Shown here: piece after piece, positions 1,354 through 41,035 of the stretch
How positions within the stretch are numbered: position 1 is the stretch's first letter
Layout: each line of letters begins with the position of its first letter
Assembly: GCA_028286665.1 (NCBI GenBank)
Contig: JAQBRD010000016.1
Coordinates: 1-59,784 of the forward strand
Origin: Candidatus Tayloriibacteriota bacterium
GTDB lineage: Bacteria > Patescibacteriota > Minisyncoccia > Phycocordibacterales > PALSA-1337
Length of the DNA: 59,784 bases
Direction of reading: 5' to 3'
Translations under genes and position numbers: made by a program
The notes under the pieces: generated by a model
What the model saw: the letters and a program-made list of their open reading frames with translations, nothing else
What the model was told of the DNA's origin: nothing
Database searches by the model: none

Positions 1354-1385
1354 GGATAAGCATAGCGGCTCAGCGATCAATCTAG

Positions 1386-1415
1386 AAAAACGCATCACTA
1401 GCTGATGCGTTTTTT
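1386..1415 (+). terminator. rho-independent terminator after 562..1353
   Basis: aaaaACGCATCActagcTGATGCGTtttttt: 8-bp stem, 5-nt loop, T-run. An A-run precedes it. Confidence 0.7.
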
Positions 1416-1703
1416 GCTGCCAGCCAATGAAAGGGAAGACGGAGTTCCCTTGTCTGCCATAATTCTTTTCGATCATCATTGCTCGCCGCTGCAGATGCAC
1501 GTCGGTTATAGTGCATCCTTGCCCGCAGCCTTTACCAGGCTAAGTTTTCGCCATGAGTAAGGAGGGTAATTGAGAACTCATAGCATTGGCGACAATGCAG
1601 AAATGAATGGCATTCTATATATACAGCCGTATTCATTCTATTATGATGTCGTAAAAGATATATTGTACGACACGACTAATATATTGCGCCAGGCTGCCCC
1701 AGC

Positions 1704-1730
1704 AAAAAAAGCGCATCATTGCTGATGCGC
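1704..1730 (-). terminator. rho-independent terminator after 1760..2068 (minus strand)
   Basis: GCGCATCAttgcTGATGCGC hairpin with a 7-nt A-run on the plus strand, which is a U-run on the minus transcript. The stem sequence is nearly the same as the terminator at 1386..1415. Confidence 0.65.
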
Positions 1731-1759
1731 TCGTCCTCCCCTTCAACTCGGCTTTCTTG

Positions 1760-2202: not shown

Positions 2203-2739
2203 TTATCTCACTGCAAGCGGCTCTGCCTTCGACCAGCATGGAGATGATGAAACCCACGGCGCTGCTCCCTGTTCTTCGTAGATATATCGAGCGTAGGCAA
2301 GATTGCCTTCGACGCTGTAGATATCGTATCCGAGGGCTTTCGAAGCCGCAAGGTGGTATTTCTCGTTGATCTGCATGATCCCGACGTCCTGGTTATTGAC
2401 GATGCCGCGGATGACGGTGCCGTCCTTCTTGAACTGGCGGAACTCTGATTCGCATCGAGCGACTTCGATGAGGATCGGCTCGTTCTTGAAGTATTCCTGG
2501 ACTTTCTGGCGATATGAGAGGCTGCGGCCAACCGGCGAATTTGCGTCTATAGTCTGGATGATTGCTGTCGTTGTTGCCGATGTTGTCGTCGCTGCCATGG
2601 CTGTCGAGGTCACTGTGCCGGTCACGCTGGAATTCAGCGCTACCGTCGAAGCGAGCATCGACATGCCGGTTATGAGTTCAAGCATATAATTTAAAAAGAT
2701 ACAGGCAAGCCCGTATCTCAATACAAGATATACTAGCAC
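2203..2739 (-). CDS. lytic transglycosylase / lysozyme-like (SLT-type) cell-wall hydrolase, membrane anchored
   Basis: The C-terminal half carries ARCESEFRQF...VNNQDVGIMQINEKYH...GNLAYARYIY, an SLT-like catalytic Glu-Ser plus the MQIN motif. The N-terminus is a hydrophobic segment followed by a Thr/Ala-rich linker. The start is uncertain because there are internal ATGs. Confidence 0.7.
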   Translation of the reverse strand: MLVYLVLRYGLACIFLNYMLELITGMSMLASTVALNSSVTGTVTSTAMAATTTSATTTAIIQTIDANSPVGRSLSYRQKVQEYFKNEPILIEVARCESEFRQFKKDGTVIRGIVNNQDVGIMQINEKYHLAASKALGYDIYSVEGNLAYARYIYEEQGAAPWVSSSPCWSKAEPLAVR

Positions 2740-2880
2740 TTTTGAAAACTGATGTCAAGGGTGTTTTTGGCTGAAAGGCTGATTATACGTTGTAAAATAA
2801 GGGTTTCTTGACCATATATTTCGATCTACTTCAAGCAGCTCCTATTCCCTTCAGGAATCTTCCGGAAATCGGCATAGGTA

Positions 2881-27451: not shown

Positions 27452-27480
27452 TTGACATATATAGTCAATGGTAGTATAAT
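27452..27480 (+). promoter_or_regulatory. consensus sigma70 promoter TTGACA-17-TATAAT
   Basis: TTGACA at 27452-27457, TATAAT at 27475-27480, spacer exactly 17 nt. A hairpin (GAACCAgtgagttgaatTGGTTC) follows immediately. Confidence 0.6.
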
Positions 27481-27562
27481 GAGGAACCAGTGAGTTGAAT
27501 TGGTTCTTGATTCCTCACCTTCTCAGTTCAGACAACCGTCAACAATTGATCCCTGAAAACAT

Positions 27563-27859
27563 ATGCAGCAGCAACCCCATGAAAAGACCATGATGGATCA
27601 ATTCATCGAGTACAACGACGGCCTTGAAGCACTATGTCGCCCCAAGGTCCCGCTCTATGAATTCCTCCGCATCATGGAAGCTTCCAGAATGGCAGAAGCA
27701 AAAAAGCAGGCAACCCCTCCGAAAGCAGCTTCGGTCAGGCTGACCGAGCCGCTCAAGCCGAAACCCCGCAAGAAGCCACGAACCGAAATTGGTTGGTGGC
27801 AGGAGTTTCAGCAGAGACAAGAAGCTCGTGAAGACAGTCGCCAACCCAGGTTCGCTTGA
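27563..27859 (+). CDS. hypothetical 98-aa protein (basic Lys/Pro-rich centre); coding status uncertain
   Basis: ATG ORF between the consensus promoter and a strong terminator. No SD before the ATG. No family recognised. Confidence 0.4.
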   Translation: MQQQPHEKTMMDQFIEYNDGLEALCRPKVPLYEFLRIMEASRMAEAKKQATPPKAASVRLTEPLKPKPRKKPRTEIGWWQEFQQRQEAREDSRQPRFA

Positions 27860-27871
27860 GTAATGAAAGCA

Positions 27872-27908
27872 ATGCCCTTCCGTTCAATTCGGAAGGGCAT
27901 GTTTTTTT
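27872..27908 (+). terminator. rho-independent terminator
   Basis: ATGCCCTTCCGttcaattCGGAAGGGCATgttttttt: 11-bp stem plus T7. Confidence 0.8.
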
Positions 27909-36887: not shown

Positions 36888-39098
36888 TTATTTGATCGGC
36901 CATTCGGTGACTATGAGCGGCAGCTTCTGCTTGTCGTCGACTGATCCTGGGATATATGACCAGATTTCTTCGGTAACGAAAGGTATGAACGGATGCAAGG
37001 TAATAAGCACTCTTTCGAGAGTTCGGAGGAGGAACTGCTGGCGCGATAGGACGACCGCCGGATCGACTGCTGCTGCGGAAGCATCCTTCGGGCCGAATGG
37101 ATTCGGTACGATCTTCTTGCTGTCTTCGAGGATGACATCGGCCAAGGTGTGCCAGACATAATGATAAAGCTTCTCTGCAGCCATATAGAAACGGTATTCT
37201 TCCATGTCCTTCGTAATATCGACGATGAGCGCATGGCGTTCCTCGCTGAGTTTCTTGTCAGCTTCGGTGTATGCGGTGAAATTTCGATCGTACGCGACGC
37301 CTTCGGTCGATGAAAGAATGAATCGGGTGATGTTCCAGATCTTGTTCGAGAAATTCTTGTATCCCTTGATCTTGTCTTCTCGGAGCGACATTTCGCTTCC
37401 TGGAGTATTGCCGACGACGAGGCCGAGGCGGAGCGCGTCGGTGCCGTATTTGTCGGTGAGATCGAGCGGATTGACCACATTTCCCTTGCTCTTGCTCATT
37501 TTTTTCCCCTGAGCATCATTCACCATGCCGTGGAGATATACGTATTTGAAAGGCTCCTTCTTCTCGAGATAGAGGCCGAAGATGACCATGCGCGGAATCC
37601 ATTTGAAGATGAGATCGGAGCCGGTTTCCATGACATTCGTCGGGTAGAAATTCTTGAAATCTGGCGAATCTGGATACCCGAGCGCGAGAAGCGGCCACTG
37701 GCCTGATGAGAACCATGTGTCGAAAGTATCGGTGTCCTTCGTGACTTCTGCCGATCCGCATTTCGGGCACTTCGAAATCGTTCCGTCGACATCGACGAAA
37801 TATTCTTTGCATCCGCCGCACAGCTTTGCCGGAACAGGAATTCCCCAGACGATCTGGCGCGAGATATTCCAATCGATGGTGTTCTCCATCCAATAGTTGA
37901 AGATCTTCCGGTAGTTATCAGGGATGAATTTCACTTTTTCCTCTGCGATAGCTTGCAATGCCTTGTCAGCAAGCGGTTTCATCTTCACGAACCACTGCGC
38001 CTTCACCTGCGGCTCGATGGCCGTACCGCATTTGTAGCAGCATGGAACGCTGTGCATATAATTTTCCTCAACCTTCTCGAGCAGTCCTTTCGCTTTGAGC
38101 TTCTCGACGATCTTCGGTCGAGCCTCGGCAATCTTCATGTCAGCGAATTCTCCTGCGATCGGCAAGAGCTTGCCTCTCCAGTCGATGATCTGCTCCTTCT
38201 CGAGCTTATGGCGTTCGGCGATCTCGAAGTCGATGCCGCTGTGCCACGGAGTGATGGTCATGACGCCGGTTCCGAAAGCCATGTCGATAGCCGCGTCCTT
38301 GATGACAGTCGCGGTGATCGGGCCATTGATCCATTCGAGATCGAACTTGTCGCCGTGCTTGTATTGCTCATATCGCTTGTCGTCCGGATGCATTACGACG
38401 TACTTGTCGCCGAACTTCGTCTCAGGACGAGCTGTTCCGATAATGAAAGGCCCGTATTTGAAATAGTAGAAGGCATCTTTCTGCTCTTTGCTCTCGGTCT
38501 CAACATCTGAGAGCGATGTCTGATGCTTCGAGCACCAGTTTACGATTCGCGAACCTCGGTATACGAGGCCATCATCAAAGAGCTTCTTGAAAGTATTCTG
38601 GACTTCCTTCACGATCTTCTCATCGAGCGTGAATCTATTGCGAGACCAATCGCATGAAGCGCCGATCTTCTGAATCTCGGACTCGATATGCTTCTTGTTC
38701 TCAAGCGTGAAGGCCATGATCTCATCATAGAGCTCTTTCGGCTCCATCTTGAAACGGGATCGTCCTTCCTTTTCGAGTTTTTTTTCGTACACCACCTGCG
38801 TCTCAAATCCGGCATGGTCAGTACCTGGAACCCAGAGAGCTTTGTAGCCCTGCATTCGCTTGAAGCGGATCATGATGTCTTCGAGGGTCATCGCGAGTGC
38901 GTGACCAGCGTGAATATGGCCGTTGGCATTGAGCGGCGGCATGATGATCGTATACGGCTTTGTGAAGCGGTTGCCGCCATTCGCTGCGCCGATCTCCGCG
39001 AGCTTGTCAGGGTTGAAATAGTCGCCGTCGAGCCACATTTTGTATATGCGGTCCTCTGTTTCCTTCGGGTTGTAGGGTTTCAGGAATTTGTCATTCAT
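36888..39098 (-). CDS. valS: valine--tRNA ligase (short form, 736 aa)
   Basis: PPLNANGHIHAGHAL (HIGH), GTARPETKFGD (editing domain), KKMSKSKGN. The conserved N-terminus starts at ATG 39098 (MNDKFLKPYNPKETEDRIYKMW). The upstream part of the ORF (to 39365) has no ValRS similarity. Confidence 0.93.
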   Translation of the reverse strand: MNDKFLKPYNPKETEDRIYKMWLDGDYFNPDKLAEIGAANGGNRFTKPYTIIMPPLNANGHIHAGHALAMTLEDIMIRFKRMQGYKALWVPGTDHAGFETQVVYEKKLEKEGRSRFKMEPKELYDEIMAFTLENKKHIESEIQKIGASCDWSRNRFTLDEKIVKEVQNTFKKLFDDGLVYRGSRIVNWCSKHQTSLSDVETESKEQKDAFYYFKYGPFIIGTARPETKFGDKYVVMHPDDKRYEQYKHGDKFDLEWINGPITATVIKDAAIDMAFGTGVMTITPWHSGIDFEIAERHKLEKEQIIDWRGKLLPIAGEFADMKIAEARPKIVEKLKAKGLLEKVEENYMHSVPCCYKCGTAIEPQVKAQWFVKMKPLADKALQAIAEEKVKFIPDNYRKIFNYWMENTIDWNISRQIVWGIPVPAKLCGGCKEYFVDVDGTISKCPKCGSAEVTKDTDTFDTWFSSGQWPLLALGYPDSPDFKNFYPTNVMETGSDLIFKWIPRMVIFGLYLEKKEPFKYVYLHGMVNDAQGKKMSKSKGNVVNPLDLTDKYGTDALRLGLVVGNTPGSEMSLREDKIKGYKNFSNKIWNITRFILSSTEGVAYDRNFTAYTEADKKLSEERHALIVDITKDMEEYRFYMAAEKLYHYVWHTLADVILEDSKKIVPNPFGPKDASAAAVDPAVVLSRQQFLLRTLERVLITLHPFIPFVTEEIWSYIPGSVDDKQKLPLIVTEWPIK

Positions 39099-39183
39099 AA
39101 CGTGGGCAGCGCATCGCGCAATGCCTATAAATATAGCAGAAATAAGGCTTTTTGCCACTCGCGAGGAGGCTTCGTTGGTATGC

Positions 39184-39212
39184 TTGACAAAGAATAATAA
39201 GTCTGCTAGTAT
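39184..39212 (+). promoter_or_regulatory. candidate promoter TTGACA-17-TAGTAT driving the non-coding locus
   Basis: TTGACA at 39184-39189 and TAGTAT at 39207-39212. It points away from valS into an ORF-poor region. Confidence 0.45.
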
Positions 39213-39219
39213 ACTCAAT

Positions 39220-39726
39220 ACGGCAATCTGATGGAATCCATTGGGTCTGCCGGTCGTAACAAAGCACACGAGCGAGAAAGTCTTGGGGTATTGACCAAGC
39301 TGCATATAAGCCAAGCAATGATTCGCCTGAGTGGAAGCTAAACAACTAGGCAGATCAAGTGGCAATATTCAAGATACAAAGGTTTGCAACTGACCACTAA
39401 GTCCATAATTGGAGCATCGGGTGGAAAAGTTAGGGCAATATTCGCAGCAGAGTGCGCGATGAGCCGTTACAAGCGATGGAGTCCGACCATAAGACTGAAG
39501 ATGCGAGCGGAGACTATCGCATCAAAGAATTATGGATTAAGCACAAGCGATCCTCAGTCTTCCCGGTAAAAAAAGGTGAGTTCCGGGAGCCACGCCTGAT
39601 TGTGACCAGCAAGTAAGTGGTCAGATACAGAGCGGAAAGGTAAAACTCGGTACCAGTGGTATCCAGAAGGCCAAAGTGTTCGTGGGTCGCCGATTGCCTT
39701 GTGCATCGGCGGCCCTTTCTTCTTTT
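39220..39726 (+). ncRNA. candidate structured non-coding RNA of about 0.5 kb, class unassigned
   Basis: 633-bp gap between valS and tkt. It has a plus-strand promoter-like element, several 5-7-bp hairpins (39282-39299, 39500-39523, 39603-39623), a 10-nt direct repeat GGCAATATTC (39361 and 39434) and a strong plus-strand terminator. The only ORF is a TTG-initiated one of 61 codons without an SD. Confidence 0.45.
39684..39726 (+). terminator. rho-independent terminator (plus strand)
   Basis: GGGTCGCCGATtgccttgtgcATCGGCGGCCCtttcttctttt: 11-bp stem (one G-U) plus a U-rich tail. The minus-strand version has no U tail. Confidence 0.75.
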
Positions 39727-39731
39727 ATATT

Positions 39732-40748
39732 TTATTTCTTCCTCAAAAGTACCTTCATGACAGCCGCCTTGATATGCGACTCCCCCATGCCGTAGTGCTC
39801 GATAAGCTCGTTCGGCGTTCCTGATTGGCCGAATTTGTCTGCGACGCCGACGAATTCGATCGGAACCGGACAATGCTGCGCGAGGCATTCGGCGACTGCT
39901 CCTCCGAGGCCTCCGGCGATCTGATGCTCTTCGACGGTGACGATGGCACCGCACTCCTGTGCCAATTTCCATACAGCTTCCTCATCGAGCGGCTTGATGG
40001 TCGTGATATTCAGAACTTTGACTGCTTTGCCCAGCTGCTCGAGCGCCTGCGCGACCTTAATCGCTTTGAAAACGAGCGCGCCGGTGGCGATGATGCCGAC
40101 CTCGGTTTTCTTGTCGGGCGTTTTTGACGCGTCTCCAGGCGAGAACATGAGCTGCGCCTTCCCGATGACGAATGGCGTCGCGTCGGTCGTGATGATTGGC
40201 GTCTTTTCGCGGGCGAGGCGGATATAGGTAGGGTCTTTCGTCATTGCGCATGCGATTGTCGCCTTCTTTGCCTCGATGGCATCGCATGGAGAGATGACGA
40301 CCATGCGCGGAATGACGCGAGTGATGGCGATGTCCTCGAGTGCCTGATGGGTGCCGCCATCCTGGCCGACAGAAATTCCTGCATGAGAGCCGGCGATCTT
40401 CACCGGGCGATCATTGTATGCGATCGTCGTGCGGATCTGTTCCCAGTTTCGTCCCGGAGAGAACATCGCGTATGAAGTAATGAAAGGAATCTTCCCCATC
40501 GCCGCCATTCCTGAAGCGACCGAAGCGAGATTCTGCTCAGCGACGCCCATCTCGATGAAGCGATCCGGAAAGCGCTGCTTGAAGAGATTCATCTGCGTCG
40601 AATCCGTGAGATCAGCGCAGAGCCCGACGACTCGCGTGTCATTGATGCCTGCCTGCAGGAGGCCTTCGCCGAAGCCTTTTCGGATCGGAACCTGCTCGAC
40701 ATCTGCGTCGAAGATCTTCGGATTGAGCTTTTGCGATGGATTGATCAT
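39732..40748 (-). CDS. transketolase, C-terminal (pyrimidine-binding) subunit
   Basis: GVAEQNLASVASGMAAMGKIPF, GSHAGISVGQDGGTHQALEDIA. 338 aa. Confidence 0.92.
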   Translation of the reverse strand: MINPSQKLNPKIFDADVEQVPIRKGFGEGLLQAGINDTRVVGLCADLTDSTQMNLFKQRFPDRFIEMGVAEQNLASVASGMAAMGKIPFITSYAMFSPGRNWEQIRTTIAYNDRPVKIAGSHAGISVGQDGGTHQALEDIAITRVIPRMVVISPCDAIEAKKATIACAMTKDPTYIRLAREKTPIITTDATPFVIGKAQLMFSPGDASKTPDKKTEVGIIATGALVFKAIKVAQALEQLGKAVKVLNITTIKPLDEEAVWKLAQECGAIVTVEEHQIAGGLGGAVAECLAQHCPVPIEFVGVADKFGQSGTPNELIEHYGMGESHIKAAVMKVLLRKK

Positions 40749-41035
40749 ATGAGATTATTCGGAATCAGATACCAGAAGCAGAATACGATGCTGACGATTG
40801 CGAATACGAGGAGTACCGCACCTTCGATTCGGCGGTACGAATACTCGAGTTCGGAGCATTTGTAGCCATAGCTCGATTCTTTGTTGAAGATGAGCGTGAT
40901 GCCGAGGAGCAGGCTCGAAATGAGGAATGCGAAAGCCCAGACCCGCTCAAACCAGCCCTGCGCCCAGAGCATGCTCACCGAAAGGACGAATATCAGTTTC
41001 AATGCGATCTCGATTTTCTTCAGGTTCTTCTTCAT
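40745..41035 (-). CDS. hypothetical 96-aa three-TM membrane protein lodged between the transketolase subunit genes
   Basis: Three hydrophobic segments. Its stop overlaps the start of the downstream tkt gene (ATGA, 4-nt overlap), which implies co-translation. Confidence 0.55.
   Translation of the reverse strand: MKKNLKKIEIALKLIFVLSVSMLWAQGWFERVWAFAFLISSLLLGITLIFNKESSYGYKCSELEYSYRRIEGAVLLVFAIVSIVFCFWYLIPNNLI

What the first reader, a model, noticed from the sequence alone, without database searches (positions are those of the whole stretch)
39184..39726. Roughly 0.5-kb ORF-poor transcription unit with its own promoter and strong terminator: candidate large structured RNA
The 633-bp gap between valS (start 39098) and the transketolase gene (stop 39732) is by far the longest non-coding stretch in the window. 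On the plus strand, which is antisense to both neighbours, it has TTGACA-17-TAGTAT (39184-39212). It ends in an 11-bp GC-rich hairpin plus a U-tract (39684-39726) that works only in the plus orientation. In between are several local hairpins (39282-39299, 39500-39523, 39559-39590, 39603-39623) and a 10-nt direct repeat GGCAATATTC (39361-39370 and 39434-39443). The only ORF is a TTG-started one of 61 codons without an SD. A few stretches are reminiscent of bacterial RNase P RNA. These are GAGAAAGUCUUGGGG (39274-39288), ACAGAGCGGAAAGGUAAAACUC (39627-39648) and AGAAGGCCAAAG (39665-39676). However, I could not assemble a P4 helix or the canonical order of elements. I also see no tmRNA ends and no SRP domain IV. 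It may be a divergent housekeeping RNA or a novel large ncRNA.
Basis: partly seen in the sequence, partly recalled or inferred. Interest (0 to 1): 0.65.

Follow-up and report, generated by a model that had tools for sequence, protein, structure and literature searches.

The report
Orphan expressed 0.5-kb non-coding RNA gene
A soil Parcubacteria (CPR) genome carries, between valS and a transketolase gene, a roughly 505-nt stand-alone unit with no detectable protein-coding signal that is the best-represented piece of the whole 60-kb window in a matching soil metatranscriptome, but it matches no known RNA family, has no detectable relatives, and its supposed likeness to RNase P RNA does not hold up.

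Summary
There is a 633-bp gap (39099-39731). On the + strand it has TTGACA-17-TGcTAGTAT (39184-39212), and an 11-bp GC-rich hairpin plus U-tract (39684-39726, dG -23.6, z -5.8). The local hairpins, the 10-nt repeat and the 61-codon TTG ORF are all as described.

New evidence:
- A soil metatranscriptome from the same study holds a 316-nt contig identical to 39285-39600 at depth 12.5. Across the other 59 kb, only two 151-nt pieces (depth 3) are found.
- The A/T and G/C skews flip to a sense-like composition on the + strand only inside the gap.
- No ORF has coding-like codon usage or any credible protein relative.

Against the stronger reading:
- Rfam 15 gives nothing, not even at E<=10 on the short pieces that carry the RNase-P-like strings.
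- ARAGORN finds no tRNA or tmRNA.
- The CR-I-like string folds as a local hairpin, there is no CR-V, and the element order is wrong.
- 18 spaced patterns plus one motif scan over GTDB genomes and JGI metagenomes, 12 of those patterns over IMG/VR, and blastn against phage and plasmid records, found no homologue. The nearest relatives lack the region.

Covariation therefore cannot be tested, and the fold signal is modest (z about -3).

Verdict: a probable lineage-restricted ncRNA gene. Its function is unknown and it is not shown to be a conserved structured RNA.

The parts
39184..39212 (+). Sigma-70-type promoter TTGACA-17-TAGTAT with extended -10 TG (39204-39205). It lies back to back with a weaker valS promoter-like site on the - strand (39158-39130).
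39217..39726 (+). Predicted transcript of about 505 nt. The start is inferred at about 39217-39220 from the -10 box, and the end in the U-tract at 39716-39726. It is purine-rich (A151 G140 U109 C108 over 39219-39726).
   Evidence: The ends are inferred, not mapped.
39221..39252 (+). 5'-terminal stem-loop directly after the inferred start (dG -17 kcal/mol, z -4.6). It probably protects the 5' end.
39285..39600 (.). Stretch covered by a 316-nt metatranscriptome contig with 0 differences at word depth 12.5. The contig has no direction.
39385..39629 (+). Predicted multi-branch domain closed by a 9-bp helix CUGACCACU/AGUGGUCAG (39389-39397 with 39616-39624). It holds the hairpin 39500-39523 and the helix 39491-39502/39550-39561. 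A competing 13/14 helix pairs 39397-39410 with 39528-39541.
   Evidence: z -3.06 for 39380-39635. Predicted only.
39361..39443 (+). Two copies of GGCAATATTC (39361-39370 and 39434-39443).
   Evidence: Weakly above chance, meaning unknown.
39684..39726 (+). Intrinsic terminator: an 11-bp GC-rich stem, a 10-nt loop and UUUCUUCUUUU. It ends 6 nt before the stop codon of the convergent transketolase gene.

Best explanation
The gap holds an independent, apparently non-coding RNA gene on the + strand, antisense in orientation to both neighbours but overlapping neither.

How it most likely works:
- An extended -10 sigma-70 promoter (39184-39212) starts transcription near 39219.
- The RNA begins with a stable 5' stem-loop and runs about 505 nt through a chain of local hairpins and one or two domains closed by long-range helices.
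- It is released at a strong intrinsic terminator (39684-39726).
- The two terminal hairpins would protect it from exonucleases and 5'-end-dependent decay. That fits its being the most abundant piece of this 60-kb region in a soil metatranscriptome.
- It has no downstream cis target, because it converges on the transketolase gene. The most likely mode of action is therefore in trans, as a stable multi-hairpin regulatory or protein-binding RNA of the Staphylococcus RNAIII or 6S/Ms1 size class. It is less likely to be a ribozyme.
- It appears restricted to this poorly sampled Paceibacteria lineage.

Shown: sequence anatomy, absence of any detectable coding signal, presence in RNA.
Inferred: strand, ends, stability mechanism, trans action.
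For: - Promoter and terminator are in the right order and orientation.
- AT skew changes from about -0.2 in the flanking - strand genes to +0.15 to +0.25 inside 39150-39600. GC skew is positive there. The + strand therefore has the purine-rich composition of a sense strand (base counts).
- The metatranscriptome run X2, from the same study as the DNA run that holds the contig, has an exact 316-nt contig at depth 12.5. The neighbouring genes are at 0. The only other exact pieces in 59.8 kb are two 151-nt pieces at depth 3. Uniform DNA carry-over would not give this pattern.
- ORFs in the gap score -0.36 to +0.14 on a codon-usage log-odds scale, where real genes score 0.47 +/- 0.21.
- The ORFs have no significant Pfam match (one weak DUF3363 hit at E 0.04, far below its cut-off) and no relative among 5.8 billion proteins at E<=10. 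There is only a spurious tandem-repeat hit among 1.84 billion representatives.
- Fold energy z is -2.9 to -3.4, the lowest of 24 windows of the same size.
- The strong terminal hairpins have z of -4.6 and -5.8.
Against: - No homologue was found anywhere, so there is no evidence of selection on sequence or structure.
- Relatives with 76% identical ValS or 82-84% identical transketolase have neither the region nor the valS-tkt adjacency.
- The RNA-seq evidence is one unstranded contig from one small run. It covers 316 of the roughly 505 predicted nt.
- Contig depth is a poor measure of abundance, and the depth-3 single-read-length pieces suggest duplicates.
- The - strand folds almost as well (z -2.4).
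- A 10/12 promoter match is common in this window.
Confidence: 0.55

Rival explanations
1. Transcribed but functionless spacer. A lineage-specific rearrangement brought valS and the transketolase operon together. The gap is a scar that happens to hold, or has kept, a promoter. The hairpin mainly insulates the convergent units, and the RNA is stable noise.
For: - valS and tkt are adjacent only in this genome, and relatives have genes directly upstream of valS.
- There is no conservation of any kind.
- Promoter-like 10/12 matches are frequent.
- The fold z-score is only modest.
Against: - CPR genomes are compact. 633 bp of junk carrying a near-consensus extended -10 promoter, a 5' hairpin directly at the inferred start and a very strong terminator is a lot of coincidence.
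- tblastx finds no gene remnant.
- The sense-like skew on the + strand suggests long-term transcription or selection in that orientation.
- It is the best-represented piece of 60 kb in the RNA run.
Confidence: 0.22
2. A strongly diverged housekeeping RNA, above all RNase P RNA. CPR bacteria are known to have RNase P RNAs that fall below Rfam thresholds.
For: - Lui et al. 2021 (PMC8172020) report that 10 of 35 closed CPR genomes needed RF00010 scores down to 5 bits. Many of those RNAs lack helices or have large extensions.
- RNase P RNA and tmRNA are, from general knowledge, among the most abundant non-rRNA species in total-RNA metatranscriptomes, which fits.
- The strings GAGAAAGUC, AAGUCCAU, GGUAAAACUC and AGAAGGCCAAAG recall CR-I and S-domain strands.
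Against: - No RNase P model scores even at E<=10, on 751 nt or on the 71- and 76-nt pieces (about 9-12 bits).
- GAGAAAG(U)CUUGG pairs locally with CCAAGCU 8 nt downstream, not with a distant strand.
- There is no ACAGNA...GNCUUA (CR-V) strand before the 3' end.
- The alternative AAGUCCAU/AUGGAUU helix encloses only 117 nt and leaves the S-domain-like strings outside it.
- The inferred 5' end leaves no room for P1/P2, and the 3' end is a terminator.
- The two-block motif occurs by chance in a cyanobacterial protein gene.
- No tmRNA by ARAGORN.
Confidence: 0.04
3. An mRNA for one or more very small proteins, for example the 46/54-codon frame at 39452/39476-39616 or the 61-codon TTG frame.
For: - The 54-codon frame has the least non-coding-like codon score (+0.14).
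- valS itself has no obvious SD, so lack of an SD is weak evidence in this genome.
Against: - All frames score below real genes.
- No Pfam match, no relative at E<=10 among 5.8 billion proteins, and only a spurious repeat-protein hit by full HMMER.
- The frames overlap each other and are no longer than expected in 500 nt of this composition.
- A 505-nt RNA with a roughly 230-nt structured leader for a 46-aa peptide is unusual.
Confidence: 0.07
4. The RNA signal is from the - strand. It would be read-through from the transketolase operon into valS, or a long valS leader, with a stable processed fragment.
For: - Contigs carry no strand.
- The tkt gene has no U-tract terminator of its own on the - strand.
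- A public gene call even extends valS upstream to 39305 because the frame is open.
Against: - tkt C-subunit and valS coding regions have depth 0 while the gap has 12.5.
- No T-box or other leader family was found on either strand.
- The valS promoter-like site at 39158-39130 gives a short leader.
- The - strand would be pyrimidine-rich, unlike the coding strands of this genome.
- The valS extension has non-coding codon usage (-0.20 against +0.66 for the first 70 real codons).
Confidence: 0.08

Closest known systems
Bacterial RNase P RNA (Rfam RF00010/RF00011), including the diverged CPR forms of Lui et al. 2021
   Same: The size class is similar. It is a stand-alone gene in an intergenic gap, abundant in total RNA and purine-rich. 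It has short strings like CR-I (GAGAAAGUC, AAGUCCAU) and like the GGUAAAC...AGCAAGGCCAAAU strand.
   Different: There is no covariance-model signal at all. There is no long-range P4 enclosing a specificity domain, no CR-V, no P1-P3, and the element order is wrong. The 3' end is a terminator placed directly after the S-domain-like strings.
Staphylococcus aureus RNAIII (a 514-nt multi-hairpin regulatory RNA). This comparison is from general knowledge, not tested here.
   Same: It is about 0.5 kb and has its own strong promoter lying back to back with a neighbouring promoter. It is a chain of about a dozen hairpins with long-range closing helices, and its last hairpin is the intrinsic terminator. 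It is abundant, restricted to a narrow lineage and poorly conserved in sequence.
   Different: No embedded peptide gene such as hld is evident. No repeated C-rich anti-SD loops were seen. No targets are known. The organism is a CPR bacterium with a reduced genome.
Large orphan structured RNAs (OLE, ROOL, GOLLD, HEARO, raiA)
   Same: It is 0.3-0.8 kb, non-coding, intergenic and of unknown biochemical function.
   Different: Those classes are defined by wide conservation and extensive covariation. Here no second member is known, and none of their models match.
6S RNA / mycobacterial Ms1 (abundant RNA-polymerase-binding RNAs)
   Same: It is an abundant, stable, stand-alone transcript. 6S-type function is known to be carried by RNAs that are hard to recognise by sequence (general knowledge).
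   Different: The predicted fold is multi-branched, not a rod with a central bubble. The length is more than twice that of 6S. There is no Rfam 6S match.

Membership tests
Bacterial RNase P RNA (RF00010/RF00011) | Detectable match to the family covariance model | tested here: not met
   There is no hit at gathering score in the window. There is none at E<=10 on 39050-39800, nor on 39255-39325 and 39615-39690. Caveat: scores of 5-9 bits, as used by Lui et al., cannot be listed with this tool.
Bacterial RNase P RNA (RF00010/RF00011) | Long-range P4 helix between CR-I (..GNAAAGUC..) and CR-V (ACAGNA....GNCUUA), with a bulged U, enclosing P5-P18 | tested here: not met
   AG(U)CUUGG pairs with CCAAGCU across an 8-nt loop (39279-39301). 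No CR-V string is present in 39213-39730. The other candidate, 39397-39410/39528-39541, encloses 117 nt only.
Bacterial RNase P RNA (RF00010/RF00011) | P1 pairing of the 5' and 3' ends, with P2 and P3 before CR-I | tested here: not met
   The inferred start at about 39219 is followed at once by a closed hairpin at 39221-39252, and the 3' end is the terminator hairpin. The ends are inferred, not mapped.
Bacterial RNase P RNA (RF00010/RF00011) | Sequence likeness to reference RNase P RNAs above chance | tested here: not met
   nhmmer with E. coli and B. subtilis rnpB gives no hit to the gap at E<=100. Smith-Waterman scores lie within the shuffles: 235/300 shuffles reach the E. coli score and 13/300 the B. 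subtilis score.
Bacterial RNase P RNA (RF00010/RF00011) | Cleaves pre-tRNA 5' leaders | not testable with these tools
   This needs an in-vitro assay.
tmRNA | tRNA-like acceptor/T-arm ends and a tag-peptide reading frame | tested here: not met
   ARAGORN finds no tmRNA in the window. There is no Rfam tmRNA-clan hit. There is no GGUUCGAnUCC...CCA end.
SRP RNA / 6S RNA | Domain IV motif (SRP); rod with central bubble (6S); match to the family models | tested here: not met
   No Rfam hit. The predicted fold is multi-branched. A 6S-like function cannot be excluded by sequence.
Known large structured RNAs (OLE, ROOL, GOLLD, HEARO, raiA) and T-box leaders | Match to the family covariance model | tested here: not met
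   No hit on either strand at E<=10.
Stand-alone bacterial ncRNA gene (generic kind) | Own promoter and intrinsic terminator on one strand, bracketing a stretch without a credible ORF | tested here: met
Stand-alone bacterial ncRNA gene (generic kind) | Transcribed, on the predicted strand | tested here: inconclusive
   It is present in RNA run X2 at depth 12.5 while its neighbours are at 0. The strand and the ends are not resolved, because only contigs are kept.
Stand-alone bacterial ncRNA gene (generic kind) | Conserved in relatives, with covariation supporting a structure | tested here: not met
   There is no homologue in 172 loci of relatives. There is none in GTDB genomes, JGI metagenomes, IMG/VR, or phages and plasmids. 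The searches need runs of exact matches, so distant homologues could be missed.

The most novel reading that the evidence does not exclude
The RNA is the first seen member of a new class of abundant, large structured RNAs of Paceibacteria. In the extreme version it is a radically rearranged RNase P or another essential ribonucleoprotein RNA. On this reading its relatives have escaped detection only because the lineage is hardly sampled and the available searches require exact word matches.
Probability: 0.1. Interest if true: 0.7.

Novelty: new member of a known kind. Interest (0 to 1): 0.35.

Why it matters
CPR bacteria have tiny genomes with little spare DNA and almost no experimentally known regulatory RNAs. 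A 0.5-kb transcript with no detectable coding signal that outnumbers the surrounding mRNAs would be a rare handle on RNA-based regulation, or on an unrecognised ribonucleoprotein, in this uncultured group. As it stands it is a single-genome orphan. Its value is as a flagged candidate for stranded metatranscriptomics and for a proper homology search across Paceibacteria genomes, not as an established new RNA class. The case also shows that recalled RNase P-like strings can be pure chance: one two-block motif recurs inside a cyanobacterial hydroxylase gene.

Tried and rejected
1. Rfam 15, on the whole window at gathering score, on the region at E<=10, and on two short pieces. The only hits were junk snoRNA/scaRNA matches at E of 7-8.5.
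2. ARAGORN: none.
3. Synteny. I fetched 80 loci around tkt relatives and 80 around valS relatives. nhmmer, blastn and tblastx of the gap found nothing. valS and tkt are not neighbours elsewhere, and relatives have no large gap upstream of valS.
4. Closest proteins. The nearest transketolase relatives are only 83-84% identical, and their contigs lack the region.
5. Pseudo-protein trick. I translated the + strand in all three frames, with stops as X, so that six spaced degenerate patterns per scan were searched. I ran it against genome contigs twice, metagenome contigs twice and viral contigs twice. No relative was found.
6. Two-block motif GGTAAAACTC-N10-24-AGAAGGCCAAA in GTDB genomes: 9 hits. 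Five lie in one cyanobacterial FAD-hydroxylase gene on the other strand. None is an RNA family and none is similar beyond the motif.
7. Phage and plasmid blastn: none.
8. Pseudogene or small-protein reading: Pfam, a 5.8-billion-protein search, full HMMER and codon usage were all negative.
9. Internal duplication into about 74-nt units, suggested by two repeat pairs with spacings of 73-74: not above shuffles, and TRF found nothing.
10. A possible paralogue on the - strand at 1386-1640. It has a 41-nt similar stretch, a shared AATACGGC after a TAGNAT box, and a similar 7-bp/10-nt-loop hairpin. In a window-wide chained-alignment scan it ranks only 4th-5th of 970, and nhmmer does not see it, so it is treated as chance.
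11. CsrB-like GGA enrichment, SD-like loops, the 11-nt tetraloop-receptor look-alike (CCAUAAG...UAUGG) and DnaA boxes were considered by eye only. None was convincing.
12. Literature: no report of such an RNA in Patescibacteria.

Full report
**What is there.** The window comes from a soil Parcubacteria/Paceibacteria (CPR) genome. The closest ValS and transketolase relatives are all MAGs of that group, at 76% and 82% identity at most. The only public run that holds the contig is a soil metagenome. valS starts at 39098 on the - strand, and relatives align from its first residue. The transketolase C-terminal subunit gene stops at 39732 on the - strand. This leaves a 633-bp gap.

**Checking the observation.**
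- Promoter: TTGACA-17-TAGTAT, preceded by TG (TGc), at 39184-39212. It matches 10 of 12 positions.
- Terminator: an 11-pair stem (one G-U), a 10-nt loop and UUUCUUCUUUU. dG is -23.6 kcal/mol and z is -5.8. It works only on the + strand, because the other side has no U-tract.
- The four named hairpins fold as described.
- I add a strong hairpin at 39221-39252 (dG -17, z -4.6). It starts one or two nucleotides after the inferred transcription start.
- The 10-nt repeat and the 61-codon TTG ORF are confirmed.

Two qualifications apply. A 10/12 promoter match is not rare here: there are 13 in the window against 8.9 expected. The repeat is only weakly above chance.

**Is it transcribed?** A metatranscriptome run (X2) from the same study as the DNA run contains a 316-nt contig identical to 39285-39600 at word depth 12.5. 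I laid this run over the whole 59.8-kb window. The only other pieces from this organism are two 151-nt pieces at depth 3 in the 3' end of the transketolase N-subunit gene. valS and the C-subunit gene next to the gap have depth 0.

This is not what DNA carry-over would give. It makes the gap the best-represented part of the window in RNA. The limits are real, though. It is one small run, contigs carry no strand, depth is a rough measure, and the first ~66 and last ~126 nt of the predicted transcript are not covered.

**Which strand?** Three independent features point to +.
- The promoter is on the + strand.
- The one-sided terminator is on the + strand.
- The composition points the same way. 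The flanking - strand genes give AT skew near -0.2 on the + strand. Inside 39150-39600 it flips to +0.15 to +0.25, with positive GC skew. The + strand is A151 G140 U109 C108, the purine-rich pattern of sense strands in this genome.

A - strand reading, either tkt read-through or a long valS leader, is disfavoured for several reasons. The neighbouring coding regions have zero depth. No T-box or other leader family is present. A valS promoter-like site sits close to the gene. A public gene call extends valS to 805 aa, starting at 39305. That is an artefact of an open frame: the extension has non-coding codon usage (-0.20 against +0.66) and no counterpart in relatives.

**Is it coding?** I found no evidence that it is.
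- On a codon-usage log-odds scale trained on 27 long ORFs of the window, real genes score 0.47 +/- 0.21 and wrong frames score -0.64 +/- 0.43. The gap's ORFs score -0.36 to +0.14.
- The ORFs have no significant Pfam match. The one listing, DUF3363 for the 84-aa - strand ORF, is at E 0.041 and 13.4 bits against a cut-off of 28.4.
- A concatenate of all five ORFs found nothing at E<=10 among 5.8 billion proteins.
- A full HMMER search of the best-scoring frame against 1.84 billion representatives returned only a 1340-aa tandem-repeat protein. Thirteen weak matches add up to E 1.4e-4 there, which is spurious.
- tblastx against 160 loci of relatives shows no gene remnant.

**Is it a known RNA?** No.
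- Rfam 15 gives no match in the whole window at gathering scores.
- At E<=10 on the region the only match is a chance snoRNA hit.
- ARAGORN finds no tRNA or tmRNA.

Lui et al. (PMC8172020) report that 10 of 35 closed CPR genomes carry RNase P RNAs below Rfam's cut-offs.
- The 71-nt and 76-nt pieces carrying the RNase-P-like strings give no RNase P hit at E<=10. On pieces this short, that corresponds to about 9 bits.
- GAGAAAG(U)CUUGG pairs with CCAAGCU just 8 nt downstream, not with a distant strand.
- There is no CR-V-type strand.
- A second P4-like pairing, AAGUCCAU.../...AUGGAUU at 39397-39410/39528-39541, encloses only 117 nt. It leaves the GGUAAAACUC...AGAAGGCCAAAG strings outside it.
- The inferred 5' end leaves no room for P1-P3, and the RNA ends in a terminator right after those strings.
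- The two-block motif GGTAAAACTC-N-AGAAGGCCAAA occurs nine times in GTDB genomes. Five of these lie inside one cyanobacterial FAD-hydroxylase gene on the opposite strand, and none lies in an RNA family.

The resemblance is chance. The residual probability for RNase P rests only on the tool's inability to show scores of 5-9 bits, and on the fact that the rest of the genome is unseen.

**Is it conserved or structured?** I could not find a second copy anywhere.
- Not next to tkt or valS in 160 related loci.
- Not on the contigs of the closest transketolases.
- Not in GTDB species genomes, JGI metagenomes or IMG/VR. There I searched 18 spaced patterns derived from the three + strand frames (12 of them against IMG/VR) plus one motif scan.
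- Not in phage or plasmid records.
- Not as a diverged copy in the same soil runs at 80% likeness.

The organism itself has no close relative in the databases. Its own transketolase cluster has one member, and the next is 84% identical. The searches also need runs of exact matches. Absence is therefore weak evidence, but it does mean that covariation, the decisive test, is unavailable.

Thermodynamically the + strand folds with z of -2.9 or -3.4. 23 other 512-nt windows give -0.07 +/- 1.25 with a minimum of -2.6, so this is the lowest of 24 but not an extreme outlier. The - strand gives -2.4. The sub-domain 39380-39635 closes with a perfect 9-bp helix and has z of -3.06. Competing long-range helices exist.

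**Most likely explanation.** The best reading is a stand-alone non-coding RNA gene of about 505 nt.
- It is transcribed from an extended -10 promoter that lies back to back with the valS promoter-like site.
- It is stabilised by a 5' stem-loop and the terminator hairpin.
- It acts in trans. It converges on tkt, so it has no downstream gene to regulate.
- In architecture it is closest to long multi-hairpin regulatory RNAs such as RNAIII, or to abundant protein-binding RNAs. That comparison is by analogy only.

I put about 0.55 on 'real ncRNA gene'. The rivals are:
- about 0.22 on a transcribed rearrangement scar without function;
- about 0.08 on a - strand artefact;
- about 0.07 on a tiny-peptide mRNA;
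- about 0.04 on a diverged housekeeping RNA.

**Novelty and score.** It is a new, so far single-member, example of a known kind of feature: a bacterial stand-alone ncRNA. It is not established as a new class. Interest is moderate to low (0.35). The expression signal in a CPR genome is worth following up, but nothing yet shows conservation, structure or function.

Noticed in passing
window 1354-1759: This is the second ORF-poor stretch, about 406 bp. It has a bidirectional-looking terminator hairpin with an A-run and a T-run (about 1386-1415) and a - strand terminator (1732-1709 plus T-run). It also holds an SD-preceded (AAGGAGGG) TTG ORF of 51 codons on the + strand (1570-1725). On its - strand, 1433-1468 is similar to 39524-39564 of the candidate RNA. 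It also shares AATACGGC just after a TAGNAT box, and a GAUGC...GCAUC hairpin with 7 pairs and a 10-nt loop. A window-wide scan ranks this similarity only 4th-5th of 970 windows, so it may be chance. The 512-nt window at 1001-1512 also folds well (z -2.5).
   Followed up: partly
window 27452-27907: A perfect TTGACA-17-TATAAT promoter at 27452-27480, a 98-codon ATG ORF at 27563-27859 with no obvious relatives checked, and a hairpin plus T-run terminator at about 27878-27907. Together they form a compact stand-alone unit on the + strand.
   Followed up: no
window 39099-39305 (- strand): The frame upstream of the valS ATG is open for 89 codons. A public gene call on the Logan contig extends valS to 805 aa, starting at 39305. 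Codon usage and relatives show the true start is 39098, so the extension hides part of the candidate RNA gene in automatic annotation.
   Followed up: yes
window 40745-41035 (- strand): A 96-codon ORF, hydrophobic and without a Pfam hit, sits between the transketolase N- and C-subunit genes and overlaps the C-subunit start by 4 nt. In a close relative (L161) the two subunit genes are directly adjacent without it.
   Followed up: no
window 2730-2758 (- strand): The same promoter hexamers as the candidate's (TTGACA-17-TG-TAGTAT) occur at the 5' end of the 178-codon ORF 2203-2739. This suggests that this hexamer pair is a genuine promoter form in this genome.
   Followed up: no
window 1-59784: There is no tRNA, rRNA or any Rfam family at gathering score in nearly 60 kb.
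   Followed up: no
L164, L165, L167, L169, L171 (cyanobacterial loci): The motif GGTAAAGGTAAAACTCC..CCAGAAGGCCAAAAAC is nearly invariant in a 437-aa FAD-dependent hydroxylase gene (opposite strand) of several filamentous cyanobacteria. It shares 26 nt in two blocks with the candidate RNA by chance.
   Followed up: yes
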